Shown piece by piece: positions 20,809 through 50,207 of a DNA stretch of 64,000 bases (position 1 is the first letter of the stretch; every line of letters begins with the position of its first letter). Origin of the DNA: a virus (lineage: Duplodnaviria; Caudoviricetes); IMG/VR virus record IMGVR_UViG_3300043748_000039, positions 7,899-71,898 of that record; one strand, given 5' to 3'. Below the pieces are notes generated by a model. That model was not told the origin of the DNA, searched no databases, and saw nothing but the letters and a program-made list of their open reading frames with translations. Position numbers and translations under genes: made by a program.

Positions 20809-20820
20809 GGATGTTCCTTA

Positions 20821-21123: not shown

Positions 21124-21173
21124 CGTAGAACTGGAACTGCAATCTGGGTAGGCATTCCTGGGAGAATGCAAGC

Positions 21174-25754: not shown

Positions 25755-26989
25755 TGACCACGTATGACCTGAACGTCCTCACCTCTACCGACGACGACGA
25801 GATCCCGCCTGCTGTAAACGTCAGCGGCAGCATCGTCGTACGCGCGTACCGGGTTGCTCTGCCGACGCTCGACGGCTTTTTGTCCTTCGACGGCACCCTG
25901 GCCATCAAGATCCCGCGCCCCCAGCCCCTGGCTCCGGAGGCCGGGCAGATCTCCTTCCAGGGCCACCTCTCGGCCGGAGTGAAGGCGCCCGCTGCCGCGT
26001 TCAAGGACTTCTCCCACTACCCGTACCAGGGCGTCGACCCGGTCATGGCGTGGATGGGCGTCAACTCCGGCGCCCTGAAGTCGGCCCTCACCGGCTCCTA
26101 CAGCCGCCCCTACACCGCGTTCACCGGTCCCGTCGACTACCCGGTCTCCGGTGGCGGCTACGCCTGGAAGCGGGCCGCGTACGCGAGCGTGGGGTTCAAG
26201 TTCCAGTCCATGTCGGCGAACAAGCACCAGATCCTCGACGCCGTGCAGTTCGAGCCGCTGCCCCTGGCGTCGACCGGCCCGAGCGCGTACCAGAACGCGC
26301 GTGAGATCCAGGCCATCATCAAGCCGACCCGGCTGAACTACGCCTCGAACCCCAACTTCGAGAGCGGGCGAACCGGTTACAACCCGACCGGCCAGGCCAC
26401 GCACACCTCCGACGCGTTCTGCTGGCAGGGCACCCAGGCCCTGAAGGTCACCGTGCCCACCACGGCGACCTCGGACAGCGGCATGGCCTTCCAGGTCAAC
26501 GGCCTGATCCCGGGCCGTACGTACACCATGAGCGCCCGCGTGGCCATCGCCCAGGGCTGCGGGGACATCGCACCGTGGTCCGGCACCGGCTCGGTGCAGT
26601 TGGGCTCTGTGAAGTGGACGCAGGCGGCCGACCGGATGGACCCGAAGCAGAAGCGCTGGCGCACGATGTTCGTCACCTTCACGACTCCGTCGTCCTCGAT
26701 GTACGTCGGCATGAACGTCCTCAAGGGCACCATGACCCCGGGCCTGGCGAGCATCTTCTGGGTGGACGGTGTCCTGGTCGAGGAAGGCACCGCCGTCCGC
26801 GACTACTTCGACGGCTCTATGGGCTCCGACTACCTGTGGGAGCAGGGCGGCAGCGCGAACCTGGCCCGCTCGTACTTCTACGAGAACTACGTCGAGCGCA
26901 GTTACCTCATCCGAACGCTGCTCGAAGAGAATGTTCCCTTGGGAATCACGGCGGCCGTACCCCAGTACGCCGTTCTGCCGACCCAGTAA
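25754..26989 (+). CDS. minor tail protein with carbohydrate-binding-like domain
   Basis: 411 aa; 'NYASNPNFE', 'TYTMSARV', 'WVDGVLVEEG...YFDGS'. Confidence 0.7.
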   Translation: MTTYDLNVLTSTDDDEIPPAVNVSGSIVVRAYRVALPTLDGFLSFDGTLAIKIPRPQPLAPEAGQISFQGHLSAGVKAPAAAFKDFSHYPYQGVDPVMAWMGVNSGALKSALTGSYSRPYTAFTGPVDYPVSGGGYAWKRAAYASVGFKFQSMSANKHQILDAVQFEPLPLASTGPSAYQNAREIQAIIKPTRLNYASNPNFESGRTGYNPTGQATHTSDAFCWQGTQALKVTVPTTATSDSGMAFQVNGLIPGRTYTMSARVAIAQGCGDIAPWSGTGSVQLGSVKWTQAADRMDPKQKRWRTMFVTFTTPSSSMYVGMNVLKGTMTPGLASIFWVDGVLVEEGTAVRDYFDGSMGSDYLWEQGGSANLARSYFYENYVERSYLIRTLLEENVPLGITAAVPQYAVLPTQ

Positions 26990-27010
26990 CCACGACCCGT
27001 AAGGATCCCC

Positions 27011-27595
27011 ATGCTTACCAACTACGCCGACGCGGCCTCCCTCGCCGTCGGTCTGGTCCTGCCCGCCATCGTGGCGGTGTTCACCAAGCCGTCCACCAAC
27101 TCCACCGTGAAGGCTGTCACGCACGCCGTCCTGGCCGTCGCGACCGGCGCCCTGGCCGTCTACAAGCAGGACCCCTCGAACTTCGTGTGGGCGACCGCCG
27201 TGGTCGCTGCGTTCCTGGCCTGGCTCAGCGGCACCGCGTTCTACCACTCGTTGCTGAAGAAGTACTCGTGGTTCGCCGGGCTCCAGAACCTGTTCGCGGC
27301 CGAGGCCAAGATCTTCCTTAATACCGACGGCCGCCAGGTCGAGACGTACTTCGGGATCGCGCAGGCGGCCGAGGCGACCGACGACGCGGCAGAGATCGTC
27401 AACGACTTCCCCTTGAGCACCGACCTCGTCCAGTCCGGCGTCGAAGAGGCTGTCCACGCGGCCGAAGAGATCCCCGTCGTCGGCGAGGCCGTCCACAAGG
27501 CCGAGACCGTCGCCGTCCCGGCCATCGCAACCTTCATCGACAACACCGTCCCCGTCCAGCCGCAGACCGGCGGCCTGGGCCCGCGAGCGCTCTGA
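27011..27595 (+). CDS. putative holin
   Basis: Three hydrophobic N-terminal segments ('LAVGLVLPAIVAVF', 'AVTHAVLAVATGAL', 'FVWATAVVAAFLAWL') plus acidic tail; end of tail module. Confidence 0.65.
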   Translation: MLTNYADAASLAVGLVLPAIVAVFTKPSTNSTVKAVTHAVLAVATGALAVYKQDPSNFVWATAVVAAFLAWLSGTAFYHSLLKKYSWFAGLQNLFAAEAKIFLNTDGRQVETYFGIAQAAEATDDAAEIVNDFPLSTDLVQSGVEEAVHAAEEIPVVGEAVHKAETVAVPAIATFIDNTVPVQPQTGGLGPRAL

Positions 27596-27596
27596 C

Positions 27597-27884
27597 ATGG
27601 ACTGGTTCCGGCTGATACTCATCGCCTTCGCCACCTTCACCGCGTGGGAGTGGCTGCGCGACACACTCCCCTTCGCCCTCCCGGCCGCCCTCCAGCCGCT
27701 CGCGGTGGTGGGACTGGCCTACGAGGCGCAGCGCCTGCCTGGCCCCTGGTTGATGGCGGTGGCAGCGGCCGGAGTCGTCGCCCTGCTTCACGTCCAGGTC
27801 AGGGGCAACGCCGCCGACGCGGCCTCGCTGCGCCTGCCGCGCAGGCATCCGTCGACCGGGCGCAGGGTTCCTGACCTGCCCTGA
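27597..27884 (+). CDS. small membrane protein (possible lysis accessory)
   Basis: 95 aa, mostly hydrophobic, basic C-terminus. Confidence 0.6.
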   Translation: MDWFRLILIAFATFTAWEWLRDTLPFALPAALQPLAVVGLAYEAQRLPGPWLMAVAAAGVVALLHVQVRGNAADAASLRLPRRHPSTGRRVPDLP

Positions 27885-27906
27885 CCCGTCCCGCTTGTCA
27901 AGCGGA

Positions 27907-27939
27907 AAGAAAACCTCGCTAGACAAGCGGGGTTTTCTT
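27907..27939 (+). terminator. terminator ending the structural operon
   Basis: AAGAAAACCTCGCT / AGCGGGGTTTTCTT inverted repeat followed by GCTTTT. Confidence 0.75.
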
Positions 27940-27966
27940 GCTTTTAGAAGCCGTAATGGCTAAGGT
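27938..27966 (+). promoter_or_regulatory. sigma70/HrdB-like promoter with AGCCGTAAT site in spacer
   Basis: TTGCTT-N17-TAAGGT; spacer contains AGAAGCCGTAAT (27946-27957). Confidence 0.5.
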
Positions 27967-28018
27967 CTTCTCTGTCGCCGGGTACGGCGGCCACCACACA
28001 CCAACACCTGGAGCACAC

Positions 28019-29251
28019 TTGAGCACGCAGCCCATCACCCTGGCCTTCGCGGGTTCCGCCGACGTCGACCCCGAGAACGTGAAGGACCTGCTCAACGACC
28101 TCGTCGGCCTTGGCGACGAGGACAAGGACGGCTTCTTCGCGCCCAGTGACCGCGACATCAACCTGATCTTCCCGATCACCCGCGAGCACCTGTCCGACGG
28201 CCTGGAGGCCGTGCTCGCCTGGTCCGAGAAGGCCGACCTCCCGTACGTCGCCGTCGCCGACAACAAGCGCAGCCGCGCCACCGAAGGGTTTCTCACGGAC
28301 GCCGAGGAGGTCGTCCACGCCGCCAACGTCACCGCCGGGGTCGTCGACCTGCTCAAGAAGGCTGACAGTGCGGGCGACGAGGTCCACCTCATCCTGCTGT
28401 GGGGCGACGAGGGCAGCCCGGAGGCCGAACTCCTCCTCGACGCGGCTGAGCAGGCTGGCATCAAGGCCAAGGACCTGACGGAAGGACTCGACGACATCAG
28501 TTTCGGTGAGCAGCCGCAGGCCGAGCCGGAGCCGGAAGAGGAGCCCGCGCCGGAGCCCGAGCCGGAGGAGGCCCCCAAGCGTGGTCGCCGTCGCGGCCGT
28601 CGCGCCGAGCCCGAGGAGGCCCAGCCGGAGGAGGAGCCGCTGACCGAGGACGAGCCGGAGGAGCCCAAGGAGGAGAATCCCCGCCGTCGCGGTCGCAAGG
28701 CCGACCCGGAGCCGGAGGAGCACCCGGTCGAGGAGGACATCCGCCTCCAGAAGGAGGAGGAAGAGGCGAGCCTGGAGCGGCAGATTAACGCCGCTGCGCA
28801 GCAGGCCCAGCGCGCGGCCCAGCCGGTCCCCGTGGAGCACTACGAGGACGCCGTCGTCTACAACGTGCTGCTCGACGCCTTCAACGCTTTCCGGCTGGAG
28901 GACGAGCGCAACGCGGTGATCAACGGTGCGCCCGTGAAGTACCGTCCGCTGACCGACCGGCTGTCCGAGGCGCTTAATATCTACGCCTCCGAGTGGGACA
29001 AGTCCGCCCCGGCGGCCCCGCAGGAGAAGGACGCGGAGCCGGAGGACTTGTCGGAAGGTGACAAGGAGGACGAGCCGACGCGTCGGCGTCGCGGCCGTCC
29101 GCGCGACGAGTCCAAGAAGTTCGCTTTCCTGGTCGACGAGGAGGGCAACTACACCCGACGCGGTCGCGGCCGGATCCCGGCCGGACAGGAAGTCGTCCAC
29201 CTGACCCGGGCGGAGATCGAGGAGAAGGGCCTCGAACTCGACGGGGAGTAA
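28019..29251 (+). CDS. acidic protein with repeated basic RGR patches (histone-like / nucleoid-type candidate)
   Basis: TTG 28019 after GGAG (track start 27938); globular N-terminus, then EP/EE low complexity with KRGRRRGRR, RRRGRK, RRRRGRPR, RRGRGRIP. Confidence 0.75.
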   Translation: MSTQPITLAFAGSADVDPENVKDLLNDLVGLGDEDKDGFFAPSDRDINLIFPITREHLSDGLEAVLAWSEKADLPYVAVADNKRSRATEGFLTDAEEVVHAANVTAGVVDLLKKADSAGDEVHLILLWGDEGSPEAELLLDAAEQAGIKAKDLTEGLDDISFGEQPQAEPEPEEEPAPEPEPEEAPKRGRRRGRRAEPEEAQPEEEPLTEDEPEEPKEENPRRRGRKADPEPEEHPVEEDIRLQKEEEEASLERQINAAAQQAQRAAQPVPVEHYEDAVVYNVLLDAFNAFRLEDERNAVINGAPVKYRPLTDRLSEALNIYASEWDKSAPAAPQEKDAEPEDLSEGDKEDEPTRRRRGRPRDESKKFAFLVDEEGNYTRRGRGRIPAGQEVVHLTRAEIEEKGLELDGE

Positions 29252-29260
29252 GTGAGCAAC

Positions 29261-29319
29261 GCAAAGGCCCCCGGCGCTGAAGAGGTTCGAGACCTCAATT
29301 CACTGCCGGGGGCCTTTGC
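29261..29319 (+). promoter_or_regulatory. long hairpin upstream of replication initiator
   Basis: Perfect 15-bp stem GCAAAGGCCCCCGGC (29261-29275) / GCCGGGGGCCTTTGC (29305-29319) enclosing GAGGT/ACCTC. Confidence 0.7.
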
Positions 29320-29370
29320 CCACCACACCCCGAGGCCCACCACAAACCCCGAGATGGGAGTAAACCTAAC

Positions 29371-29412
29371 ATGTCCAGCCGACTTAATATCAACGGCGGG
29401 GTCGCCGAGTGA
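29371..29412 (+). CDS. putative leader minigene MSRLNINGGVAE
   Basis: GGGAG upstream; TGA 29410-12 overlaps GTG 29409; carries CTTAATATC in frame. Confidence 0.4.
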   Translation: MSSRLNINGGVAE

Positions 29413-30485
29413 GCATCCTCCGCGTCAAGCGCACCAAGGGGTACACGACAATCCCCAACTCGACGCTGTGCGACCACCGCCTGTCCTTCCGCGCCCGGGG
29501 CGTGCTGGCTTTCCTGCTGGCCAAACCGGACGACTGGGAGACCCGCACGACCGACCTGCCTGAGCACGGCAGGGAAGGCCGCGACGCGGTCCGTACGGCC
29601 CTGAAGGAACTCCGCGACCTCGGCTACATGGACCAGGAGCGGGAGCAGTACAGGGACGACGAGACAGGCAAATGGCTCTGGCGTACGGTCACGATCGTGC
29701 GTGATTTTCCGGAGCCTGAAAACCCGACTTCGGAAGTGGTTCCGGAGACGGATTCTCAGTCGTCGGAAACTAGTTGGGATATATCAACTCGACAGGGTGC
29801 TTCCGAAGACGGGTTTTCAGGCGCTCCCCTACTGTCTAACTACCTAACTACTAGTAGTGAAGTAGTTAATGAGAAGACTACGTCTTCTCCACCGCGCCGG
29901 TCGGCGCGGTCGGAACCAGGGGAAGTCGAGGACGTCTCCGGGAGGCCGGGCGGTAAGGGCTGGGATGCTGTTCGCCCGGTCTACCGGCCGAAGAGGAAGA
30001 CCAGGAAGCAGCAGGCGGAGGAAGCCGCCCTGGCGGAGAGGGAACTCGACCCTGCGTACGTCGTGGGCCAGGTCCTCGGTGAAGACGGCTCGGGAAGCAG
30101 CCAGGATGTCCGTCTCCCGGCTTCAGGTGATGACATGGCCCCTCCGGTCCAGCGATCTCCTAAGAAGCGCTCTCAGCGGCCTTCGGAGGCTTTGGCTTCG
30201 TTCTTCGAGACGCGGGCCAAGGAGGTGGGTCATCCGGTACCCGGTCCGGTCAACCTCGGAGCGCTCTCTAATCACTTCGGCAGGTGGATGCGCGAGGGTG
30301 CCGACCGGGAGGCCGTCCGGCAGATGATCATCACCTACTGGTCCTCGTCCTGGAACCGCTCGGAGAACGTCCCGGCCTGGAAGGACTTCCTCGCCGCCCG
30401 TGGACTGCTCACCGAGCGGAAGGCGAAGGTCGAGACGACCAAGCGGGTGGAGGACACCCGGTACGACACGGACTTCTGGTCCTGA
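29409..30485 (+). CDS. replication initiator with N-terminal helix-turn-helix
   Basis: 'YTTIPNSTLCDHRLSFRARGVLAFLLAKPDDW...GRDAVRTALKELRDLGY'; directly upstream of DnaC-like and DnaB genes. Confidence 0.75.
   Translation: MSILRVKRTKGYTTIPNSTLCDHRLSFRARGVLAFLLAKPDDWETRTTDLPEHGREGRDAVRTALKELRDLGYMDQEREQYRDDETGKWLWRTVTIVRDFPEPENPTSEVVPETDSQSSETSWDISTRQGASEDGFSGAPLLSNYLTTSSEVVNEKTTSSPPRRSARSEPGEVEDVSGRPGGKGWDAVRPVYRPKRKTRKQQAEEAALAERELDPAYVVGQVLGEDGSGSSQDVRLPASGDDMAPPVQRSPKKRSQRPSEALASFFETRAKEVGHPVPGPVNLGALSNHFGRWMREGADREAVRQMIITYWSSSWNRSENVPAWKDFLAARGLLTERKAKVETTKRVEDTRYDTDFWS
29714..29890. other. candidate replication origin inside initiator gene
   Basis: 23-bp inverted repeat (29714-29736 / 29800-29822, one mismatch); inner AGTTG-GGATATAT-CAACT; AT-rich CTAACTAC repeats / GTAGTTA at ~29836-29870. 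Confidence 0.45.
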
Positions 30486-30489
30486 CCTC

Positions 30490-30521
30490 AAGGGGCGGGC
30501 TGCTTCGGCGGCTCGCCCCTT
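30490..30521 (+). terminator. stem-loop with UUCG loop after initiator gene
   Basis: AAGGGGCGGGCTGC-TTCG-GCGGCTCGCCCCTT. Confidence 0.6.
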
Positions 30522-30576
30522 ACGTCTTCCAGTTAATGTCTTCCGAAAGCCGTAATGTGTGGTAGCCTCCTGAGCG

Positions 30577-31263
30577 TTGAACCACCACCACATCGAGGAG
30601 GACATCTTGGCGACCGACCCCCGGGTCCACGCCCTGCGCATGAAGGAGTACGGCGTCCCCGCCTACTACCGGCACCTCCGGCTTAACACCTGCGACTCAC
30701 CCTGGCGCAAGGACTGCCAGGAGTGGGTCGACCACCTCCAGGACCACTACGTCACCGACCGGCGGCCCCTGGAGCACTACCCGGCAGACTGGAGCCAGAT
30801 CGGCAAGGGGATCCTCTTCGTCGGCCCTCCCGGCACCGGCAAGACGTCCCTGGCCACGGCCACGCTCCTGGAGTGCTACCACTCCCGCCGTGTCCCGGTG
30901 CACTTCATCGCCTACGCCGACTACATCAAGTGGTCCAACGAGCAGCGGGGCCTGGCCGACCGCAAAGAGCCCGAGGCCGTCCACCGCTGGTGGGAGATCG
31001 AGGACACCCTCAACGCCGCCCGCATGGCGCCCGTGCTGCTCCTGGACGACGTCGGCAAGGAGCACCGGACCAAGACGGGCTACGCCGAGAACGAGCTGGA
31101 CGCGCTGCTGCGCCTCCGGCACCGCGAGGCCCGGCCCACGCTCATCACCTCCAACGTCCCGCCGAGCAAGTGGGGCGACGTCTACAACCCGTCCATGGGC
31201 TCCTTCATCCAGGGGGCCTTCACCACCCTCACGATGATCGGGGACGACCGCCGTGCTGCCTGA
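30577..31263 (+). CDS. DnaC/IstB-like AAA+ helicase loader
   Basis: Walker A GPPGTGKT, Walker B 'LLLDDVGKE', 'TLITSN'. Confidence 0.85.
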   Translation: MNHHHIEEDILATDPRVHALRMKEYGVPAYYRHLRLNTCDSPWRKDCQEWVDHLQDHYVTDRRPLEHYPADWSQIGKGILFVGPPGTGKTSLATATLLECYHSRRVPVHFIAYADYIKWSNEQRGLADRKEPEAVHRWWEIEDTLNAARMAPVLLLDDVGKEHRTKTGYAENELDALLRLRHREARPTLITSNVPPSKWGDVYNPSMGSFIQGAFTTLTMIGDDRRAA

Positions 31264-31327
31264 ACTGTTGACTTCCCACAAAACCACGGGACTTAATACC
31301 CGGCTCCGCAAGGCGGAGCGCACCTGA
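31253..31327 (+). CDS. putative minigene (24 aa)
   Basis: GTG 31253 after GGGGA; TGA 31325-27 overlaps ATG 31327; carries CTTAATACC in frame. Confidence 0.3.
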   Translation: MLPELLTSHKTTGLNTRLRKAERT

Positions 31328-31782
31328 TGGAACGGGGCGACATCTCCAACGAGGTCGTCCCGCGCCTGGTCATCGCGTACGAAGGCATGCTCGGCGTCCT
31401 GCCAGAGAAGCCGGAGCGCGTACACGAGCTGGTTGCCCGCAAGTTCGGGCGCCGCGCTCGCATGGCCAAGCGGACCGTGGACGCGTACGAGATCAACGAC
31501 CGGTTGGCCCGGGTCATCTGGGACACCACCTGGCGCTTCCGCTACTCGGTCGACGTCGTCACCTACCTCGGTGATGACGCCGTCGAGCCCCTGGAAGAGC
31601 GCCTGGACCGCGAGGGGCTCCCCATCGGCCGCGTGTGGGCCGACACCCCCGAACGGCTTGCCCGGCGCCTGCCCTACATGCCGGACGTCGCCGCGATCTT
31701 CGACAACGAACACCACCTGATCTACGGCAGCAAGGGCCGGACTCTGCCCGCTGCACCCACCACACTGATCGGAGCACTGTAA
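31327..31782 (+). CDS. hypothetical protein (possible HAD-like fold)
   Basis: 151 aa; 'LVIAYEGML' start; coupled to helicase gene. Confidence 0.7.
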   Translation: MERGDISNEVVPRLVIAYEGMLGVLPEKPERVHELVARKFGRRARMAKRTVDAYEINDRLARVIWDTTWRFRYSVDVVTYLGDDAVEPLEERLDREGLPIGRVWADTPERLARRLPYMPDVAAIFDNEHHLIYGSKGRTLPAAPTTLIGAL

Positions 31783-33048
31783 GTGGCGGACTTCGAGCGC
31801 CTGCTCGTGTCCCGCGTCATCCAGGACAAGGACCTGGGAGACGTCGCGGACGCGGGCATCACCCCGGCATTCTTCGGCGACCCCGACAACAAGGCCGTCT
31901 TCAAGGCCATCCTCCGGCACAAGGGCACCTACGGCGAGGTGCCCAGCCTCGCGACCATCAAGACGGACTTCCCGACGTACAAGTTCGTGCGCGTCGAGGA
32001 CTCCGTGCAGGTCCTCACCGACCGGCTGCGCGCCCAGCACACCCTGGACCTCCTGGAGCAGGGCCTTGCCGAGTCGGTCGACGCCCATGAGGAGGGCAAC
32101 GCCGACAAGGCCATGGCGGCCCTCGCCAAGACCCTCTCGGACATCGCTGCGGCCGTACCCAACACCCGCGACACCGACCTCACCACGACCGGCACCGAGC
32201 GCCTGGCCCGCTACCTCGCGCTCAAGGACCTCCCCGACGGCCTGCGAGGAATACCCACCGGCTTCCAGACCATCGACCGCGCCACCCAGGGCTTCCAGAA
32301 GGGTCAGTTGATCACGTTCGTCGGCCCGCCCAAGGCCGGTAAGTCCACGCTGCTCCTGCTGGCCGCCATGGCCGCGCACCTCTTCGGCGTGAAGGTCCTG
32401 TTCATCAACTTCGAGATGAGCAACGAGGAGCAGGAGGAGCGCTACGACGCCATCCGCGCGGGGATTTCCCACGCCCGCCTGCGGAACGGAACGCTGAAGA
32501 AGCAGGACTGGGACCGCCTGGAAAAGGCCATCCGGGAAATCGAGAACATGCCGTCGTTCTTCCTGTCCTCGGACACGATGAATGCGACCACGCTTACCGG
32601 TGTGCAGTCGAAGATTGAAACACTGCGCCCGGACATCGTGATCGTTGACGGTATCTACATGATGCAGGACGAACTCGGAGAGCCGCAGGGTTCGCCGCAG
32701 GCGCTTACGAATCTCACCCGTGGATTCAAGCGCATGGCGAAGAACCAGGACAAGCCCATCATCATTTCCACCCAGGTCCTGGAATGGAAGATGAACAAGA
32801 AGAAGGGCATCACGTCCGACTCCATCGGTTATTCGTCATCCTTCGCCCAGGACTCCGACGCCATTCTCGGTGTCGAGAAGACCGACGACCCGAACATCAA
32901 CAAGATCAAGGTCGTCCTCGCCCGTAACTGCCCGCCCCTGGAGACCTTCGTCCAGTGGGACTGGGAGACCGGGAAGTTCGAGGAACTGAACGAGGACCCC
33001 TTCGCCATGGAGGAGGAGAACACCGATGGCTGGCAGGGATCCTTCTGA
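31783..33048 (+). CDS. dnaB: replicative DNA helicase (DnaB-like)
   Basis: 'GIPTGFQTIDRATQGFQKGQL..GPPKAGKS', 'FINFEMS', 'DIVIVDGIY', 'AQDSD', 'ARNCP'. Confidence 0.92.
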   Translation: MADFERLLVSRVIQDKDLGDVADAGITPAFFGDPDNKAVFKAILRHKGTYGEVPSLATIKTDFPTYKFVRVEDSVQVLTDRLRAQHTLDLLEQGLAESVDAHEEGNADKAMAALAKTLSDIAAAVPNTRDTDLTTTGTERLARYLALKDLPDGLRGIPTGFQTIDRATQGFQKGQLITFVGPPKAGKSTLLLLAAMAAHLFGVKVLFINFEMSNEEQEERYDAIRAGISHARLRNGTLKKQDWDRLEKAIREIENMPSFFLSSDTMNATTLTGVQSKIETLRPDIVIVDGIYMMQDELGEPQGSPQALTNLTRGFKRMAKNQDKPIIISTQVLEWKMNKKKGITSDSIGYSSSFAQDSDAILGVEKTDDPNINKIKVVLARNCPPLETFVQWDWETGKFEELNEDPFAMEEENTDGWQGSF

Positions 33049-33325
33049 GCCCCGCCTGGTGGTCCTCGCCGGGAACTTCCGGGAGTTCCAGTTCTGGTGC
33101 CGGGAGAACAACCGCAATCCCCGTGACCGGAATCTGATCTACGCCAGCGAAATGCACCGGCTTCAGGGCCTGGGAAAGGTCCGCTACATCACGTACGGAA
33201 CCTGGTACCTGCGGCGAGACGCCTTCGAAATCCACGAGTACCTGATTTACCTGGTGAGGAGACAGGAATGCCTAGAGCAAAAGCCGGATGGGATGCAATC
33301 GGAAACCCCATCCCTGGAAACGTGA
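33026..33325 (+). CDS. hypothetical protein
   Basis: 99 aa ORF bridging helicase and primase, overlapping both. Confidence 0.45.
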   Translation: MAGRDPSEPRLVVLAGNFREFQFWCRENNRNPRDRNLIYASEMHRLQGLGKVRYITYGTWYLRRDAFEIHEYLIYLVRRQECLEQKPDGMQSETPSLET

Positions 33326-34233
33326 CGGCCTGCCTCGACACCATCGGCCTCGACTACAAGGTCCAGGGCGACGAGATACACATGCCGTGCCCCATGCATG
33401 AGGCGCGCACCGGAAAGAAAGACGCACACCCATCCTTTTCCATAAACTACGACGAGGGATATTTCAACTGCTTCTCCTGCGGATACCGTGGGGCCTTCTG
33501 GATCCTCGTCCGCGACGTACTCGACCTGGATACGCCGGACGCCAAGAACTGGGTACGGCGCCGGGGAGGGGCGGAGCGCGTCCGCAAGTACCTGGAGAAG
33601 AAGAAGGAGCAGCGGCCCAGCCAGGTCGACACCACCAAGCAGATCAATGAGGCGTCGCTGGCCCTGTACACCACGCCGCCGCTGTCCGCGTGCGCCGACC
33701 GGCTCTTCCTGCCGGAGGACGCCGAGGCGTGCGGGGTGATGTGGGACCCGGCCCGGGACATGTGGATCATCCCGGTCCGCGACCCCGACACGGGCCTGCT
33801 GTGGGGCTGGCAGGAGAAGAACAAGCGGTACTTCCGCAACCGGCCTCCGGGCATGGCCAAGTCCAAGACGCTATTCGGACTGCACACCTACGACGCCGAC
33901 GTGGCTGTGCTGGTCGAGTCGCCGCTGGACATCGCCCGGCTGTGGACCTGCGGGATCCGGGGCGGCCTGGCTGCCTACGGCGCTGGAGTCTCCGACGCGC
34001 AGATGTCCCTGATCCGCGACCACTTCGACACGGTCATCGTCGCCCTCGACAACGACGAGGCCGGGGCCGAGGCGTGCAGGCGCCTCCTGGAGGAGTGGAC
34101 CGGCCGGGGCCTGACCCTCAAGTTCCTCGACTACTCCGTGGCCCCCAGAGCCAAGGACGTCGGCGAGATGACCGCCGACCAGATCAAGGCCGCTGTACGC
34201 GGCGCCTACTCATCCGTCGTCGCCCGCTTCTAG
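33268..34233 (+). CDS. DNA primase (CHC2 zinc finger + TOPRIM)
   Basis: 'CPMHE...PSFSIN...FNCFSCG', 'VLVESPLD', 'ALDNDEAG'. Confidence 0.9.
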   Translation: MPRAKAGWDAIGNPIPGNVTACLDTIGLDYKVQGDEIHMPCPMHEARTGKKDAHPSFSINYDEGYFNCFSCGYRGAFWILVRDVLDLDTPDAKNWVRRRGGAERVRKYLEKKKEQRPSQVDTTKQINEASLALYTTPPLSACADRLFLPEDAEACGVMWDPARDMWIIPVRDPDTGLLWGWQEKNKRYFRNRPPGMAKSKTLFGLHTYDADVAVLVESPLDIARLWTCGIRGGLAAYGAGVSDAQMSLIRDHFDTVIVALDNDEAGAEACRRLLEEWTGRGLTLKFLDYSVAPRAKDVGEMTADQIKAAVRGAYSSVVARF

Positions 34234-34242
34234 GAGATCACC

Positions 34243-34287
34243 ATGACCCGGCTTAATACCTGCCCCCGCAAGGGGGACCACCGATGA
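34243..34287 (+). CDS. putative minigene MTRLNTCPRKGDHR
   Basis: AGGAG (34232-36) then ATG 34243; TGA overlaps ATG 34284; carries CTTAATACC in frame. Confidence 0.45.
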   Translation: MTRLNTCPRKGDHR

Positions 34288-34580
34288 AGGCACCCGAAGG
34301 CTACGAGCACCTGGGCCAGGAGTTCTGGGACCGCGTCGTGCCGGACCCGGACAGCGACTGCCTCATCTTCCAGTCCAACGCCACACGACCGCACTACGGC
34401 GGCAAGACCCTCCTGTCCTTCCTGACCGGAGGTGACGGCCGCCAGAAGCACCGCGCGTGCAGGCGCCGGATGTGCGCCAACCCGGACCACATCGCGGACG
34501 GCCACTTCGAGATGGGCACGCCGTACGCCCCGCGTACGCGCTCGACCCGTCAGTTCTCCCGCCAGTACAGCCAGTGCTGA
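34284..34580 (+). CDS. degenerate HNH-endonuclease-like protein
   Basis: 'DCLIFQ...HYG...HRAC...CANPDHI' resembles the zinc-binding loop of HNH homing endonucleases. Confidence 0.5.
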   Translation: MKAPEGYEHLGQEFWDRVVPDPDSDCLIFQSNATRPHYGGKTLLSFLTGGDGRQKHRACRRRMCANPDHIADGHFEMGTPYAPRTRSTRQFSRQYSQC

Positions 34581-36214
34581 CGGTCGACCTGCACGGCTAT
34601 CAGGAGTCGGCGGTCGACCGCGCTGTGGAGCGCGGCTCACTCCTGATCGCGTACGAGATGGGCCTGGGCAAGACCGTCATCGCCCTGGCCGCCATAGAGG
34701 AGCTGCTGGAGAAGGGGGAGGTCGAGACCGCCGTCATCGTGGTCCCGGCCAACCTCAAGTACCAGTGGGCCAAGTCCATCGCCCGCCTCACCGACGTGCC
34801 GACCCGCGTGGTCACGGTGCGAGAGGACGGGATGAAGCAGGAGATCACTGTCCCGACGGAGGAGTACTGCCTCCTGATCGACGGCGACGCCAAGAAGCGC
34901 GCCGGGCTGTACGCCAAGGTCAAGGCGCTCCGGCCGGAGTACGTGATCCTCGGCTACGAGAACGTCGTCAACGACTGGCAGTTCGTGAGGAGGATCAAGC
35001 CGGAGTGCATCGTGCTGGACGAGTGCACCGCGATCAAGACGTTCCGGGCCCAGCGCACCCGGAAGATCAAGCGGCTCACCGCCCCGTACCGCTTCGGCAT
35101 GACCGGCACCCCGGTCGAGAACGGCAAGCCCGAGGAACTGTTCAGCATCATGCAGTGGGTCGACGACCAGGTCCTCGGTCGGTTCGACCTGTTCGACAAG
35201 ACCTACATCGTGCGCAACAAGTTCGGCGGCGTGCAGAACTACAAGAACCTGCCGGTGCTGCACGCCAAGCTGGCCGAGGTGATGGTGCGCAAGACGCGGC
35301 TGGACGACGACGTCCGGCCATACCTGCCCGAGGTGCAGGAGTCCGTCATCCCGGTCACCCTCGACGGCAAGACGAAGGCGGCGTACAAGACCATCGCGGC
35401 CGACCTGCTCGCCGAGCTGCGGGCGGCCGGGCCGACGATGGGTGACTTCGACCTGTTCGCCCACTACCACGGAGGAGACGCGGCCAACGAGAACAGCCAG
35501 CAGGGCAAGATCATGAGCCGCATGCAGGCACTCGACATGCTGCTGAACCACCCGGACCTGATCGTCATGTCCGGGCAGCAGTATGAGGAGAGCCAGGAGG
35601 CACGCTCACGCGGCGCCGAGAAGAAGGTGTGGCCCGGCTCGAAGTACGCCTACGAGGTGTGGCAGAGCGGGATCCTGGACGACGTCACCACGTCCCCGAA
35701 ACTGGACGCCGTGGCGGCAGCGATCGAGGACATTCTGGCCGTGCCCCGCAACAAGATCATCGTGTTCAGCGTCAACCCCGACATGCTGGACCTGATCGGG
35801 GACCGGCTGCCGGAGGGCTCCTTCGTCACCTACACCGGCCGCATGTCCTCGGCGGCCAAGGCTTATGCCGCCCAGCGGTTCGAGTCCGACGAACAGTGTC
35901 GGGTGTTCCTCTCCAGCCACGCGGGGGCCTTCGGCACGGACCTGTACATGGCGAACTACCTGCTGAACTACGACCTCGCCTGGTCGGCCGGGAAGCAGGA
36001 CCAGATCAACGCCCGGCACAACCGGGCCAGCAGCACGTTCAAGGACATCTACATCCTGAACGCCATCACCCAGGGCACCACCGAGCCGCGCAAGCTGGCC
36101 ATGCTGGCGCACAAGAGGCGGGTCGGCAGCGCCATCACGGACGGGCGCGGGGCCGATGAGAAGGGCCGGATCGAGAACGACGTCCAGACCCTGACTCAGT
36201 GCCTCGCGGCGTAA
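34574..36214 (+). CDS. SF2 (SNF2-type) helicase
   Basis: GTG 34574; 'YEMGLGKT', 'DECTAIK', 'MTGTPVEN', 'LNYDLAW...DQINARHNR'. Confidence 0.9.
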   Translation: MLTVDLHGYQESAVDRAVERGSLLIAYEMGLGKTVIALAAIEELLEKGEVETAVIVVPANLKYQWAKSIARLTDVPTRVVTVREDGMKQEITVPTEEYCLLIDGDAKKRAGLYAKVKALRPEYVILGYENVVNDWQFVRRIKPECIVLDECTAIKTFRAQRTRKIKRLTAPYRFGMTGTPVENGKPEELFSIMQWVDDQVLGRFDLFDKTYIVRNKFGGVQNYKNLPVLHAKLAEVMVRKTRLDDDVRPYLPEVQESVIPVTLDGKTKAAYKTIAADLLAELRAAGPTMGDFDLFAHYHGGDAANENSQQGKIMSRMQALDMLLNHPDLIVMSGQQYEESQEARSRGAEKKVWPGSKYAYEVWQSGILDDVTTSPKLDAVAAAIEDILAVPRNKIIVFSVNPDMLDLIGDRLPEGSFVTYTGRMSSAAKAYAAQRFESDEQCRVFLSSHAGAFGTDLYMANYLLNYDLAWSAGKQDQINARHNRASSTFKDIYILNAITQGTTEPRKLAMLAHKRRVGSAITDGRGADEKGRIENDVQTLTQCLAA

Positions 36215-36279
36215 CTTCCAGGATCGCATGGCGCACGTCGAGTGGTTCTAAAGCCGTAATCGCATGGCACCATCAAGGT

Positions 36280-36414
36280 ATGCGAGAAGAACCACTCGAC
36301 GTGCTGCTCCGTGAGGGGTTGGAGCACGTCATGCACCCCCCCGAGGAGCAGGAGGACTGGGATCTGACCCCCGTCCGCCTGGCGCTCCGAGGTGACATCG
36401 CCGACCGCTGGTGA
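36280..36414 (+). CDS. small hypothetical protein
   Basis: 44-aa ORF after an AAGCCGTAAT site; normal codon usage. Confidence 0.35.
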   Translation: MREEPLDVLLREGLEHVMHPPEEQEDWDLTPVRLALRGDIADRW

Positions 36415-36441
36415 TCCTGTAAAGCGGATGCGTTAGATCCG

Positions 36442-36470
36442 TTGACATACCGTAACGCTCTGCGTAGAGT
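36442..36470 (+). promoter_or_regulatory. near-consensus sigma70/HrdB promoter
   Basis: TTGACA-N17-TAGAGT upstream of gene 36525 (RBS AGGAGG). Confidence 0.75.
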
Positions 36471-36524
36471 CGACCTCGTAAGAAGCAATCGAACGAAGGA
36501 TCGAACAGCACGCAGGAGGACGGC

Positions 36525-36911
36525 ATGACCACCATCGCGGAAGCCCTCGGCATCACCTGGGAGCAACGGGCGCACGAAGAGAACCGTGCGCCGAAGTACC
36601 GGCTGACCTACCACGCGCAGAAGCAGGCCGCCGCCAAGGGTTGGTCCTGTCTCCAGGTCCTGGAGGCCGCGAACAACCCGCAGCACACCTACCCTTCGGG
36701 CCGCGTCCACGGCCAGTTCCGGCACGTACGGGGCAACATCGTCGCCATCGTGGACCCTGCCGCGAACCGAGTCGTGACCGTCTACAGGGACGTCGAGGAG
36801 ACCGACCTCCGTGCCGACCAGACGGACATGGACGCCCGCCTCTACTCCAGCCGCCGCACCACCCGTCTCGGGCAGCCGGTGCCTGTCGTGGTCGACGAGG
36901 TTACGTACTGA
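36525..36911 (+). CDS. DUF4258-like protein (RelE/BrnT-like fold)
   Basis: 'YRLTYHAQKQAAAKGW...VLEAANNP...IVAIVD...VVTVY'. Confidence 0.55.
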   Translation: MTTIAEALGITWEQRAHEENRAPKYRLTYHAQKQAAAKGWSCLQVLEAANNPQHTYPSGRVHGQFRHVRGNIVAIVDPAANRVVTVYRDVEETDLRADQTDMDARLYSSRRTTRLGQPVPVVVDEVTY

Positions 36912-36958
36912 GAAAGCCGTAATCTCGAATGGACAATCGAGAAGGCGTAATGTAGAGT
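36912..36958 (+). promoter_or_regulatory. promoter overlapped by 14-bp-period repeats
   Basis: TGGACA (36930-35)-N17-TAGAGT (36953-58); GAAAGCCGTAAT 36912-23 and GAAGGCGTAAT 36941-51 are 28 bp apart. Confidence 0.65.
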
Positions 36959-37007
36959 CGTTCCTGCTCACCCACCTACTACTCCGGCAGAAAGAGAGCC
37001 CAGCTCT

Positions 37008-37484
37008 ATGGCTACCGTGCAGAGACGAGCCACCCGCCGCGTCGAGCGGCCGATAAGCCTCGACCAGGCCGCGCCCTGGGAGAAGACGAGGCAGTTCCTG
37101 GCCCTGAAGTTCCAGGAAGCGGACATCGTCACCCGCAAGAACAAGTTGCGTGACGAGGTCTCCGCCCACGTGGACGCGACCGGCGAGGTCGACGAGAAGG
37201 GCAGCAAGTTCTGGAAGTTGGACCCGCCCATCGAGTTCAACGGCCAGAAGTTCACCGAGGTCAAGCGCGAGCGCCGCGTCTCCCAGTCCATCGACGAGGA
37301 GAAGGTCGAGGCCCTGGTCACCGCCAAGGGAATCCGAGACCGCGTCTTCAAGCAGGTCACCCAGGAGGTCCTGGACCAGGACGAGTTGTACGTCCTCAAC
37401 CAGGAGGGAGTCCTCAGCGACGAGGAACTCGACTCCCTCTGGGTCGAGACCGAGTCCTTCGCCTTCAAGCCCATCCGCGCCTGA
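37008..37484 (+). CDS. hypothetical protein
   Basis: 158 aa ORF, charged, good codon usage. Confidence 0.75.
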   Translation: MATVQRRATRRVERPISLDQAAPWEKTRQFLALKFQEADIVTRKNKLRDEVSAHVDATGEVDEKGSKFWKLDPPIEFNGQKFTEVKRERRVSQSIDEEKVEALVTAKGIRDRVFKQVTQEVLDQDELYVLNQEGVLSDEELDSLWVETESFAFKPIRA

Positions 37485-37500
37485 CGGGAGCACCCACCAC

Positions 37501-37971
37501 ATGAACAGCATCGCCAGCACCATCGACGAGCAGTTCGCCGCGATCGGTGAGCAGTACTACCCGGGATCGACGCGCCCCCTGGTACGTCACCCCAACCGGC
37601 TTAATACCGAGGCCGCCCCGTCGGCGGCCGACCCCGGAGCGTGGGACGCCAAGCCCCGCAAGGGCGTGGTGGGCGGTGTGGAGACCAACTTCTACACCGT
37701 CGGCGACCTCGCCAAGGCGTTGGGCCGTCAGCCGGTGACGATCCGCAAGTGGGAGCGCGAGGGGATCATCCCCAAGAGCGTCTACCAGTCCCCGGGCCGG
37801 GACGGAGATGTACGCGGCCGACGCCGCCTGTACACACGCGAGCAGGTCGAGGGCATGGCCCGCATCGCGGCCGAGGAAGGCGTCCTCGTCTCCCACCAGA
37901 AGCCCATCAAGGACACCCAGTTCACCCCGCGCGTCATCGATCTCTTCGAGCGGCTGGTGAACGCGGAGTGA
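37501..37971 (+). CDS. MerR-like helix-turn-helix DNA-binding protein
   Basis: ATG 37501; 'FYTVGDLAKALGRQPVTIRKWEREGIIPK...RRRLYTREQV'. Confidence 0.85.
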   Translation: MNSIASTIDEQFAAIGEQYYPGSTRPLVRHPNRLNTEAAPSAADPGAWDAKPRKGVVGGVETNFYTVGDLAKALGRQPVTIRKWEREGIIPKSVYQSPGRDGDVRGRRRLYTREQVEGMARIAAEEGVLVSHQKPIKDTQFTPRVIDLFERLVNAE

Positions 37972-38204
37972 GAGTCGTCAAGAGCCAGAAGCACCACGTC
38001 AGCATGGGCAACTTCGAGTGGGTCGAGTTCGGCTACGAGGTCGACATCTCCACCGAGGACTTCCCCAAGGCACGAACGCTCGACGACCTGGACAAGATCG
38101 CAACCGACCAGATCGAGAAGGCCCTCGCGGCCGACGTCGAGGAAGCCCGACTGAACACGGGCGAGTCCGCCTCGTACATCCATCTCTACCAGCAGGAGAA
38201 CTGA
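37968..38204 (+). CDS. hypothetical protein (78 aa)
   Basis: GTG overlaps upstream TGA; 3' part of track ORF 37641. Confidence 0.65.
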   Translation: MRVVKSQKHHVSMGNFEWVEFGYEVDISTEDFPKARTLDDLDKIATDQIEKALAADVEEARLNTGESASYIHLYQQEN

Positions 38205-39023: not shown

Positions 39024-39108
39024 TCGGCCTCCCACGGGGAGGTTCCGGCGCCGAGCTGGTGCTGGGGCCTCCCCTCAGCTTTCCCATCCACCACCACAGG
39101 AGGCCGCC

Positions 39109-39354
39109 GTGGTCACCACCCGCATCCACATCAACCAGCACCACATCAAGGCGAACAGGAAGGCCGGGCCCGAGGACGAGCCCCTGCCGGTCATCACGGC
39201 CAAGGACTACCAGCAGAACCGCAAGGGCAACCACGTCCAGATCCTCGACGAGGCCGGACGCGTCATCGCCCAGGTCGTCTACCGCCCCGACAAGCCGCTC
39301 GACTGCGGCGCCCACGTCTGGATCGAAACCACCCACGAGGTCGTCGTCCGATGA
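39109..39354 (+). CDS. hypothetical protein
   Basis: 81 aa, RBS AGGAGG; 'IHINQHHIKAN...PLDCGAHVWIET'. Confidence 0.75.
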   Translation: MVTTRIHINQHHIKANRKAGPEDEPLPVITAKDYQQNRKGNHVQILDEAGRVIAQVVYRPDKPLDCGAHVWIETTHEVVVR

Positions 39355-42232: not shown

Positions 42233-42279
42233 GCGCCCCTCCTCGTAAACCGCACACACTTCCCTAGAAGAGGCTTGCC

Positions 42280-43914: not shown

Positions 43915-43984
43915 CCTCCCGAAATTCCTCAAAAGATCTTGCTCTGACTAGTTGATACATCGCTGGACCGGTAGTCCCTCACCG

Positions 43985-44034: not shown

Positions 44035-44054
44035 ATTAGGAGCACACCACACAC

Positions 44055-47936: not shown

Positions 47937-47943
47937 CCACCAC

Positions 47944-50195: not shown

Positions 50196-50207
50196 CAACT
50201 CCGCACG

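What the first reader, a model, noticed from the sequence alone, without database searches (positions are those of the whole stretch)
29371..34287. All three between-gene copies of the motif lie in minigenes coupled to the next replication gene
Seen: 29371-29412 MSRLNINGGVAE* (RBS GGGAG; stop overlaps the initiator GTG), 31253-31327 (24 codons; TGATG overlap) and 34243-34287 MTRLNTCPRKGDHR* (RBS AGGAG; ATGA overlap). Each holds the motif in the same CTT-AAT frame. Two begin M-x-R-L-N, echoing real gene starts MTLNT (2172, 47944) and MPLNT (44055). Inference: the motif may need to be translated or ribosome-covered, pointing to an RNA or translation-level mechanism, such as a rare CTT-AAT pause controlling coupled reinitiation or shielding of an RNase site.
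Basis: partly seen in the sequence, partly recalled or inferred. Interest (0 to 1): 0.75.

Follow-up and report, generated by a model that had tools for sequence, protein, structure and literature searches.

The report
Translated phage word-plus-hairpin element
A nine-letter word that this soil phage repeats about 35 times always sits in the reading direction and reading frame of a gene, is followed by a small RNA hairpin, and where it falls between genes it gets its own tiny gene, which points to an undescribed signal read on the phage's messenger RNA.

Summary
All three between-gene copies of CTTAATAYC (29383, 31292, 34252) lie in short ORFs with an RBS, in frame CTT-AAT. Each ORF's stop overlaps the start of the next replication gene. 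Random intergenic 9-mers meet these criteria 0.4% of the time.

Relatives keep the arrangement while the peptides diverge. Every further between-gene copy I inspected in four genomes also lies in an RBS-led mini-ORF, a gene end or a probable uncalled ORF.

New findings:
- The word is half of a composite element: an unpaired 9-mer, 2 nt, then a GC-rich hairpin. Downstream folding averages -13 kcal/mol against -8.7 for controls.
- In the three mini-ORFs, the hairpin's 3' arm (its loop region at site 1) carries the next gene's RBS.
- About half of the sampled sister phages carry CTTCATAYC instead; the two types almost never mix in one genome. A distant phage uses CTTCTAGVC.
- At one site the word pairs with a downstream anti-word, with an A:U to C:G compensatory change.
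- A small HicA-like (dsRNA-binding fold) protein differs most between the two types.

Best reading (about 40%): an mRNA element kept in translated sequence and read by a phage-specific RNA-binding protein or nuclease. The mini-ORFs would be coupling leaders.

Rivals are a pure ribosome pause and a DNA-level site. The frame rule is partly forced by coding limits. I found no description in the papers searched and no Rfam match in the window.

The parts
29371..29412 (+). Mini-ORF 1 (13 codons), leader of the replication initiator. RBS GGGAG at 29356-29360. The stop TGA overlaps the initiator GTG at 29409.
   Evidence: Sequence. Kept as an intact ORF with an overlapping stop and start in both A-type and C-type relatives, although the peptide changes.
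29383..29391 (+). Word copy CTTAATATC, in frame CTT-AAT-ATC.
29394..29407 (+). Hairpin (5-bp stem, 4-nt loop) starting 2 nt after the word and ending 1 nt before the initiator GTG.
   Evidence: In A-type relatives a 6-bp version has GGAG in its loop.
29409..30485 (+). Replication initiator gene (DnaD/HTH type), coupled to mini-ORF 1.
   Evidence: PHROG replication initiation families, E = 2e-18.
31253..31327 (+). Mini-ORF 2. The start is GTG 31253 or TTG 31268. The stop TGA at 31325-31327 overlaps ATG 31327.
   Evidence: In many relatives the same word plus hairpin is the 3' end of a longer ORF.
31292..31300 (+). Word copy CTTAATACC.
31303..31319 (+). Hairpin (7-bp stem). Its 3' arm holds GGAG (31315-31318), 8 nt before ATG 31327.
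   Evidence: The stem is invariant and the loop length varies among relatives.
31327..31782 (+). 151-aa gene of unknown function upstream of DnaB, coupled to mini-ORF 2.
   Evidence: No Pfam or PHROG hit. Strongly partitioned between the two word types.
34243..34287 (+). Mini-ORF 3 (14 codons). RBS AGGAG at 34232-34236. The stop TGA overlaps ATG 34284.
   Evidence: Conserved in all A-type relatives and some C-type relatives. In other C-type genomes the word sits in the first codons of the next gene.
34252..34260 (+). Word copy CTTAATACC.
34263..34276 (+). Hairpin CCCCC/GGGGG. Its 3' arm is the RBS-like GGGGGA, 7 nt before ATG 34284.
34284..34580 (+). 98-aa gene of unknown function, coupled to mini-ORF 3 and followed by the SNF2 helicase gene.
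2178..61144 (+). The other 31 copies of CTTAATA(C/T)(C/G) in the window. All lie inside genes, all in the sense direction and all in frame CTT-AAT. Most are followed by a hairpin after about 2 nt.

Best explanation
The word is the single-stranded 5' half of a composite RNA element: 9 nt, about 2 nt of spacer, then a stem-loop. The element is embedded in the sense strand of the phage's transcripts and kept inside translated sequence.

In the three between-gene positions it is hosted by tiny leader ORFs. The hairpin there holds or abuts the RBS of the next gene. Ribosomes that read the leader would melt the hairpin and restart at the overlapping start codon, which is classical translational coupling.

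The word itself is most likely read by a lineage-specific factor encoded by the phage. That factor would bind or cut the word when it is presented next to the folded hairpin, that is, when no ribosome covers it. The best candidate is a 69-97-aa HicA-like protein with a dsRNA-binding fold, encoded near the genome end of complete relatives.

What is shown: the anatomy, its conservation, the sense-only and in-ORF placement, the hairpin, the concerted A-to-C switch, and the anti-word covariation.

For: Placement in the sense strand and in ORFs:
- 270 of 271 genic copies in 8 genomes are in the sense direction and in frame.
- The one reverse copy lies in the sense frame of a small minus-strand ORF. 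It is followed by its own hairpin (seen by eye) and switches type along with its genome.
- All between-gene copies inspected in G000, G001, G002 and G004, and those at the site before the membrane-protein gene, sit in RBS-led mini-ORFs, gene ends or a probable uncalled ORF. Chance is 0.4-3.9% per site.

The hairpin:
- The 36 nt after the word fold at about -13 kcal/mol, against -8.7 for in-frame controls (p = 1e-5 to 1e-11 in six genomes). The upstream side is not structured.
- The stem most often starts 2 nt after the word.
- Orthologous positions without the word have no hairpin (-8.7). Old shared sites have the strongest (-13.5). There are 18 compensatory pairs.

RNA-level pairing:
- Upstream of a 235-aa membrane/HTH gene, the word, a stop codon and an anti-word form a stem. 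A:U appears in 6 distinct A-type sequences and C:G in 7 distinct C-type sequences, with 100% of cells paired.

A specific reader:
- In the DnaB-centred loci (L009-L048, L051) each genome piece carries only the A word or only the C word; four C-type pieces and two A-type pieces also hold one stray C-type 7-mer on the opposite strand. G009 holds the one canonical wrong-type copy.

The candidate protein:
- It has the largest type partition of all shared families: 79% identity within a type against 40% between types.
- The predicted fold is alpha-beta3-alpha.
- Top structural matches are HicA toxins.
- G-x-H is invariant in the beta1-beta2 loop, matching the essential Gly22 and His24 of HicA (PMC3969222).
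- A distant phage with a homologue has its own sense, in-frame word, CTTCTAGVC.
Against: - No expression, cleavage or binding data exist.
- A and C types are largely two clades, so the protein-word association is confounded by descent. Only about three lineages are informative.
- The HicA call is below Pfam's threshold: 14-18 bits against 27. The structural scores are middling, Z about 5.
- The distant phage's word has no downstream hairpin.
- Hairpins fold equally well on either strand, so single-stranded DNA is not excluded.
- About two thirds of the copies lie more than 60 nt from any start codon, deep in essential genes where cutting would destroy the message.
- The frame rule can be explained largely by coding economy.
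Confidence: 0.4

Rival explanations
1. DNA-level site. The word is read on DNA: a stoperator-like block for a repressor, a strand-specific nick site, or a lagging-strand priming site. On this view, frame and ORF placement are by-products. New copies arise most cheaply by two synonymous changes at existing L-N-T or L-H-T tripeptides, and the mini-ORFs are former gene ends that persist as ordinary coupling leaders.
For: - The copy number (35-44 per ~105 kb), the polarity with transcription and the lineage-specific versions all parallel stoperators (PMC9283540).
- The phage has a tyrosine integrase, and relatives carry an Xre/DUF5753 gene on the minus strand, so it is probably temperate.
- Gains are seen at ctgaacacc and ctgcacacc.
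- 82-94% of L-N-[TI] or L-H-[TI] tripeptides are encoded by the word.
- TAA and TTA forbid the other frames in the A type.
- The hairpins show no sense-strand advantage.
- The primase is strongly partitioned by type.
Against: - The single reverse copy follows gene direction and not the DNA strand. A + copy lies further left of it in G002.
- The hairpin and the anti-word stem argue for a single-stranded nucleic acid.
- Several mini-ORFs before the membrane-protein gene have different, independently placed RBS and start pairs.
- No between-gene copy that I inspected lacks an enclosing ORF, although intergenic DNA would be the cheapest place for a DNA site.
- The Xre-type protein is not partitioned by type.
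- In the C type and the CTTCTAG type, other frames are allowed but unused.
Confidence: 0.25
2. Pure translation-level pause. The ribosome itself is the reader. With the rare CUU in the P site and the rare AAU or CAU in the A site, the hairpin starts at about position +12, the ribosome's mRNA entrance. This would give a programmed pause that tunes coupling, co-translational events or mRNA life. No separate factor is needed.
For: - The word spans exactly three in-frame codons.
- CTT, AAT and CAT are all rare codons here.
- The hairpin offset of 2 nt leaves a 5-nt spacer after the A-site codon. From general knowledge, this is the geometry of frameshift and pause sites.
- CUU followed by a slow codon is the classic shift-prone context (prfB, Ty1; general knowledge).
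- The phages carry tRNA-Asn(GUU). Two of the three C-type genomes that could be assessed add a tRNA-His(GUG).
- The distant phage's word is CUU-CUA, and that phage carries tRNA-Leu(UAG).
Against: - It does not explain the strict one-version-per-genome rule or the conserved third codon.
- The distant phage has no hairpin.
- A +1 shift would not join any mini-ORF to the next gene. Those genes are in the -1/+2 frame (coordinates).
- Copies at codon 3 of genes, or directly before a stop codon, gain little from a pause.
- The anti-word stem is left unexplained.
Confidence: 0.2
3. Coincidence of two unrelated features. The three mini-ORFs are ordinary leader peptides of replication genes, and the word merely happens to lie in them.
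For: Leader-peptide coupling of initiator genes is well known (R1 tap-repA, IncI repY-repZ; general knowledge). The whole-leader folds have unremarkable z-scores.
Against: - Of 38 intergenic regions in the genome, the only three with the word are also the only three whose RBS-led mini-ORF ends overlapping the next gene's start codon by 1-4 nt. One other mini-ORF (61343-61447) ends exactly where the next called gene begins, but the two are not shown to be coupled.
- The chance estimate is 0.004 per site.
- The same link recurs at other sites in relatives.
Confidence: 0.05

Closest known systems
Leader-peptide translational coupling of replication initiators (plasmid R1 tap-repA; IncI/IncB repY-repZ). 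This comparison rests on general knowledge.
   Same: A short ORF with its own RBS sits upstream. Its stop overlaps the initiator's start. The initiator's RBS lies in or next to a hairpin inside the leader.
   Different: Here the leaders carry a genome-wide 9-nt word that also occurs about 30 times inside genes. Three successive replication genes each have such a leader. No antisense RNA is evident.
Stoperators of Cluster A mycobacteriophages (PMC9283540; PMC6550527)
   Same: More than 20 asymmetric sites are spread over the genome. Their orientation is tied to the direction of transcription. Their sequence co-evolves with a phage-specific reader.
   Different: Stoperators are 13-bp DNA sites in promoters and short intergenic spaces. 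This word is 9 nt, about 88% of copies are inside ORFs in one frame, it is followed by a hairpin, and at one site it pairs with an anti-word.
Phage T4 RegB and RegA target sites. This comparison rests on general knowledge.
   Same: A phage protein recognises a short RNA word present in many phage messages and so controls translation or message life. Many sites lie next to start codons.
   Different: RegB cuts GGAG in ribosome-binding sites of early messages. Here the word is 9 nt, lies in coding frame, occurs in both early-type and structural genes, and has a fixed-distance hairpin.
HicA toxins (PF07927; PMC3969222; PMC10865869)
   Same: The candidate reader shares the alpha-beta3-alpha dsRNA-binding-like fold and the Gly-x-His of the beta1-beta2 loop.
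   Different: Its sequence score is below the family cut-off, and no HicB partner gene lies beside it. It is phage-encoded, and the A-type form has a 14-aa insertion. No HicA is known to have a 9-nt specificity.
DNA uptake sequences in coding regions (general knowledge) and Chi-enriched phages (PMC12315714)
   Same: These are short over-represented words whose reading frame inside genes is set by coding economy. Chi is strand-polar.
   Different: Uptake sequences occur in both orientations. Chi follows DNA ends and not gene direction, and Chi-rich phages lack recombination genes, whereas this phage has RecA-like and Cas4-like genes.

Membership tests
Leader-ORF translational coupling (tap-repA type) | A short upstream ORF with its own RBS and start codon | tested here: met
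   GGGAG + ATG 29371 and AGGAG + ATG 34243. Mini-ORF 2 has only a weak start, GTG 31253 or TTG 31268.
Leader-ORF translational coupling (tap-repA type) | The leader's stop overlaps or abuts the start of the regulated gene | tested here: met
   GTGA at 29409, TGATG at 31325 and ATGA at 34284. Conserved in relatives.
Leader-ORF translational coupling (tap-repA type) | The regulated gene's RBS is sequestered in a structure that leader translation opens | tested here: inconclusive
   GGAG at 31315-31318 and GGGGGA at 34272-34277 lie in the 3' arms of predicted hairpins. Opening by ribosomes cannot be tested here.
Stoperators | Asymmetric multi-copy site oriented with transcription | tested here: met
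   34 copies on +, 0 on - in the window. The only reverse copy lies in a minus-strand ORF.
Stoperators | Location in promoters and short intergenic spaces | tested here: not met
   32 of 35 copies in the genome are inside called genes. The other three are inside mini-ORFs.
Stoperators | Bound by the phage's immunity repressor, whose specificity co-varies | tested here: inconclusive
   An Xre/DUF5753 gene exists in relatives but is not partitioned by word type. Binding cannot be tested here.
HicA (candidate reader protein, encoded in relatives only) | dsRBD-like alpha-beta3-alpha fold | tested here: met
   The model has H20-31, E35-39, E43-47, E53-58 and H64-76, pLDDT 75. Foldseek's top match is 1WHZ with probability 0.95. 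VIA-align gives four HicA chains in the top 7: Z 4.6-5.1, rmsd 2.5-2.9 A, 55-60 residues aligned.
HicA (candidate reader protein, encoded in relatives only) | Gly-x-His in the beta1-beta2 loop (Gly22 and His24 in PMC3969222) | tested here: met
   T-G-G-N-H is invariant in 11 sequences, lying between strands 1 and 2 of the model.
HicA (candidate reader protein, encoded in relatives only) | Score above Pfam's PF07927 gathering threshold | tested here: not met
   14.1-18.2 bits against a cut-off of 27. The A-type member gets no hit.
HicA (candidate reader protein, encoded in relatives only) | Adjacent HicB antitoxin gene | tested here: inconclusive
   The neighbouring genes give DUF7848, a weak holin-like hit or nothing. 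A diverged partner cannot be excluded.
Programmed +1 frameshift sites (CUU + slow codon) | Shift-prone CUU in the P site followed by a rare codon | tested here: met
   CTT, AAT and CAT are rare codons here. The word is in frame in 270 of 271 genic copies.
Programmed +1 frameshift sites (CUU + slow codon) | A functional product is read in the +1 frame | tested here: not met
   The genes after the three mini-ORFs are in the -1/+2 frame (coordinates). No conserved +1 ORF was seen. About 40 sites per genome, including codon 3 of genes, makes recoding implausible.
Chi-like recombination hotspots | Polarity set by DNA ends or replication and not by gene direction | tested here: not met
   The reverse copy sits in a minus-strand ORF, with + copies on both sides in G002.

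The most novel reading that the evidence does not exclude
A clade of large, probably temperate actinophages tags its own messages with an in-frame three-codon word (CUU-AAU-ACC, CUU-CAU-ACC, or CUU-CUA-GVC in a distant lineage), followed in the window's clade by a hairpin. A phage-specific HicA-like RNA-binding nuclease reads the tag only when ribosomes are absent. This would be a translation-gated 'self' mark on mRNA whose specificity switches in concert with about 40 sites per genome. No such system has been described.
Probability: 0.25. Interest if true: 0.9.

Novelty: new variant of a known kind. Interest (0 to 1): 0.75.

Why it matters
If the word-plus-hairpin is read on mRNA, it would be a genome-wide post-transcriptional control system in a phage whose specificity can be followed base by base. 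About 35 orthologous sites changed A to C together, and a small candidate reader protein changed with them. That gives a natural matched pair for testing how an RNA-binding protein and its sites co-evolve.

It also bears on how translation protects or exposes messages in high-GC actinobacteria.

The three mini-ORFs show how the element is wired into the control of replication genes: initiator, helicase partner and SNF2 helicase block.

Even if the DNA-level reading proves right, the system would extend the stoperator idea to sites built into coding sequence.

Tried and rejected
Readings rejected:
- Promoter. Copies sit 3-9 nt after start codons that have strong RBSs, and nothing beyond the 9 nt is conserved. 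No phage RNA polymerase is annotated in the closest isolates.
- Peptide signal (L-N-T). Rejected because the codons are fixed: 29 of 34 L-N-T in G000 are CTTAATACC. The amino acid also changes to His in sister phages.
- Mobile mini-insertion. Rejected because orthologous positions without the word align base for base (for example ctgaacacc), so gains are point changes.
- A trans-acting phage antisense RNA. No anti-word of 7 nt or more lies on the + strand apart from the minus-strand ORF copy.
- AT-hook or Lsr2-type binding. Unlikely, because the C version interrupts the A/T run.
- DpdA/TGT-type modification. The sense word has no G and no conserved TGT context. This reading was not pursued.
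- tRNA supply as the cause. tRNA-Asn is present in both types, and tRNA-His in only two of the three C-type genomes that could be assessed.

Searches that found nothing:
- Rfam has no family matching anywhere in the window.
- Streptomyces phage Alone3 (52% PolA identity) has no comparable word in the 80 kb scanned.
- L049/L050 carry only an iteron-like GGGCAGTTTT array.
- GAACCTGA in proviruses G006/G007 is not comparable.
- Literature searches for the word and for the isolates gave nothing relevant.
- A profile search of PDB sequences did not find HicA.

Tests that were uninformative or could not be run:
- Sense versus antisense folding did not separate RNA from single-stranded DNA.

Full report
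CONTEXT

The window is bases 7899-71898 of a 71.9-kb IMG/VR virus contig. The contig is about 65% G+C and is estimated to be 72% complete. Almost all genes are on the + strand.

Gene order matches the large Streptomyces myophages BRock, Alone3 and LuckySocke, with PolA about 52% identical. The genes around the finding are:
- a DnaD/HTH-type replication initiator (29409-30485);
- a DnaC-like loader (30577-31263);
- a 151-aa unknown (31327-31782);
- DnaB (31783-33048);
- primase (33268-34233);
- a 98-aa unknown (34284-34580);
- an SNF2 helicase, PolA and a ribonucleotide reductase.

Complete relatives are 105-110 kb with direct terminal repeats. They carry a tyrosine integrase, also present in this contig at 3172-4245 in contig coordinates, upstream of the window. 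They also carry an Xre/DUF5753 gene on the minus strand. The phage is therefore probably temperate.

THE OBSERVATION

CTTAATA occurs 34 times in the window, always on +, against 0.33 expected. The conserved word is 9 nt, CTTAATA(C>T)C. There is a mild preference for G just before it and nothing else beyond codon periodicity.

- ATG 29371 to TGA 29412, with GGGAG ten bases upstream. The stop overlaps the initiator GTG.
- An ORF ending at TGA 31327, overlapping ATG 31327. It starts at GTG 31253 or at TTG 31268, which lies five bases after the DnaC-like stop.
- ATG 34243 to TGA 34287, with AGGAG seven bases upstream. The stop overlaps ATG 34284.

For comparison I tested 53,152 intergenic 9-mers from eight genomes. 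Only 3.9% have an RBS-led in-frame start within eight codons. Only 0.4% also end at the next start.

Of the genome's 38 intergenic regions of at least 20 nt, only these three contain the word. They are also the only three whose RBS-led mini-ORF ends overlapping the next gene's start codon by 1-4 nt. One other mini-ORF (61343-61447) ends where the next called gene begins, but coupling is not shown.

RELATIVES

I fetched 43 loci around DnaB (84-87% identical) and seven further long or complete relatives, G001-G005, G009 and G011.

About half carry CTTAATAYC at the same density. The other half carry none and have CTTCATAYC instead, again almost always on the sense strand. In the DnaB loci no genome piece mixes the two canonical words. 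A few pieces carry one stray opposite-strand C-type 7-mer.

For most genes the two types form two clades, although the DnaB tree intermixes them.

Mini-ORF 1 is kept in both types. It has ATG three or four codons before the word, is 12-15 codons long, and its stop overlaps the initiator start. Its peptide diverges strongly between types and keeps little more than the L-N/H core.

Mini-ORF 3 is kept in all A-type loci and some C-type loci. In G002 and G004 the word lies instead in the first codons of the following gene.

At site 2 the conserved module is the word, the hairpin and the TGATG overlap. What lies upstream is either a mini-ORF or the end of a longer ORF, always in frame.

The reverse case also occurs. 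The RecA-like gene of the window starts M-P-L-N-T at 44055. In G002 and G004 the same word sits in a 10-codon mini-ORF with AGGAG or GGAG, whose stop lies at or overlaps the RecA-like start.

In G000, G001, G002 and G004, every between-gene copy I inspected lies in an RBS-led mini-ORF, at a gene end, or in a probable uncalled ORF. The between-gene copies of the other four genomes were listed but not inspected one by one. One non-canonical antisense copy, CTTCATACG in G004, and one 'frame 2' call in G011 are the only exceptions. The G011 case is probably a gene-calling error.

ORIENTATION AND FRAME

Across eight genomes, 270 of 271 genic copies are in the sense direction and in frame CTT-MAT-AYC.

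The contig's only reverse copy (contig 3022-3030) lies in the sense frame of a 46-48-codon minus-strand ORF next to the integrase gene. It has its own hairpin, seen by eye two bases after the word. It is A-type in A genomes and C-type in C genomes. Orientation therefore follows the gene and not the DNA strand. This is, however, a single evolutionary case.

The frame rule is weaker evidence than it seems, for three reasons:
- In the A type, CT-TAA is a stop, and TTA is used 0-1 times per genome.
- A table of 75 orthologous site clusters shows that new copies arise at existing L-N-T (ctgaacacc) in A genomes and at L-H-T (ctgcacacc) in C genomes, by two synonymous changes. One G005-only site is an example: the six other genomes that have the position all read ctgcacacc (G004 lacks it).
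- Tripeptides that would allow the other frames are scarce.

Against that, the C type and a third word (see below) leave another frame open, and it is never used.

A HAIRPIN IS PART OF THE ELEMENT

The 36 nt after the word fold at a mean of about -13 kcal/mol. Random in-frame windows of the same genes fold at -8.7 (sd 3.6). The difference gives p between 1e-5 and 1e-11 in each of six genomes. The 36 nt before the word are not structured.

The word itself is mostly unpaired, and the stem most often begins two bases after it.

Hairpin strength tracks the age of the site:
- shared, old sites: -13.5;
- single-genome, recent sites: close to background;
- orthologous positions lacking the word: exactly at background, -8.7.

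Many shared sites keep a stem at the same offset while the sequence changes, with 18 compensatory pairs.

In the three mini-ORFs this hairpin lies directly before the next start. Its 3' arm contains GGAG (31315-31318) at site 2 and GGGGGA (34272-34277) at site 3. At site 1 the A-type relatives have GGAG in the loop. This is the standard design of translational coupling.

AN ANTI-WORD

Upstream of a 235-aa membrane/HTH gene, which lies beyond the end of this contig, every relative has the same arrangement. The word is followed directly by a stop codon, then by a stem in which the last six bases of the word pair with a downstream complement, then by a second strong hairpin.

A-type sequences have AATACC...GGTATT. 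C-type sequences have CATACC...GGTATG. That is A:U in 6 distinct sequences and C:G in 7, with 100% of cells paired in helix 1.

The ORF that brings ribosomes to this word is sometimes a gene end. In other genomes it is a 6-8-codon mini-ORF, and these have differently placed RBS and start pairs. This argues that translation up to the word is maintained, and that the word acts in a single-stranded nucleic acid.

A CANDIDATE READER

Among gene families shared by the eight genomes, the strongest partition between A and C genomes is a 69-97-aa protein near the genome end. It is 79% identical within a type and 40% between types. It is absent from this contig only because the contig stops short.

In 23 further loci its type matches the word type, although these are not independent of clade.

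The evidence that it is HicA-like:
- Its model is alpha-beta3-alpha, pLDDT 75.
- Foldseek's top match is 1WHZ, a HicA-family protein.
- VIA-align puts four HicA toxins in the top seven: Z 4.6-5.1, rmsd 2.5-2.9 A, 55-60 residues aligned.
- Pfam's HicA model is the best but sub-threshold hit.
- The invariant G-N-H lies in the beta1-beta2 loop, where Gly22 and His24 are essential in B. pseudomallei HicA (PMC3969222).
- HicA is described as a dsRNA-binding-domain toxin (PMC10865869).

No HicB-like neighbour was found.

A distant 100-kb phage (60% G+C) with a 46%-identical homologue has no CTTNATA. It has its own word, CTTCTAG(V)C:
- 32 copies are sense and 7 antisense;
- 27 of 29 genic copies are in frame CTT-CTA-GVC;
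- none is in the permitted CT-TCT-AGV frame;
- there is no downstream hairpin.

Alone3, which has no homologue of this protein, has no such word in the 80 kb scanned.

INTERPRETATION

The data fit best an RNA element that is kept in translated sequence. On this reading the mini-ORFs are coupling leaders that also keep the word under ribosomes, and a lineage-specific factor reads the word next to the folded hairpin.

I put this at about 0.4. Its weak points are the confounding of the protein-word association by descent, and the many copies deep inside essential genes.

A DNA-level site of the stoperator kind (PMC9283540), with frame and ORF placement as by-products, remains a serious rival at 0.25. 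A reader-free ribosome pause stands at 0.2. It is attractive because the hairpin starts 5 nt after the would-be A-site codon and because CUU plus a slow codon is the classic shift-prone context. It does not explain the one-version-per-genome rule.

Nothing comparable turned up in Rfam or in the papers searched.

Noticed in passing
G000 contig 2914-3060 (-) and 3172-4245 (+), upstream of the window: A tyrosine integrase gene with a small divergent minus-strand ORF. That ORF carries the only reverse-oriented copy of the word. Together with an Xre/DUF5753 (WhiJ-like) minus-strand gene in relatives (L057:635-1480), this suggests the 105-kb phages are temperate.
   Followed up: partly
G002 (reverse complement of L058-L063), my coordinates 95196-95281; G003, 76989-77074: An 86-nt tRNA with anticodon GUG and a long variable arm, unusual for tRNA-His. 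It lies next to tRNA-Asn in two C-type genomes (word codon CAT) and in none of the A-type genomes. G004 lacks it.
   Followed up: partly
G009 (reverse complement of L093-L097), my coordinate 57753: A single C-type copy (CTTCATACC) inside an otherwise A-type genome, at a site near the genome end that is a word site only in C-type genomes. It may be a relic that hints C is the older version.
   Followed up: partly
window 18412-27317; G001 72326-87634: Long stretches without any copy. In the window this is the baseplate and tail-fibre block. In relatives it is a 15-kb block of small genes with no homologues in Alone3, probably early genes.
   Followed up: no
L137-L141 (G014, 100-kb virus contig): A third sense-strand in-frame word, CTTCTAG(V)C, with 32 copies, in a distant phage that also has the HicA-like gene. 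No hairpin follows it.
   Followed up: partly
L049:21010-21145: An iteron-like array of GGGCAGTTTT repeats in a distant relative with 44% DnaB identity. It is probably a replication origin and is unrelated to the word.
   Followed up: no
It is conserved at that position in all eight genomes, as CTTCATATG in the C type.
   Followed up: no
   Followed up: partly
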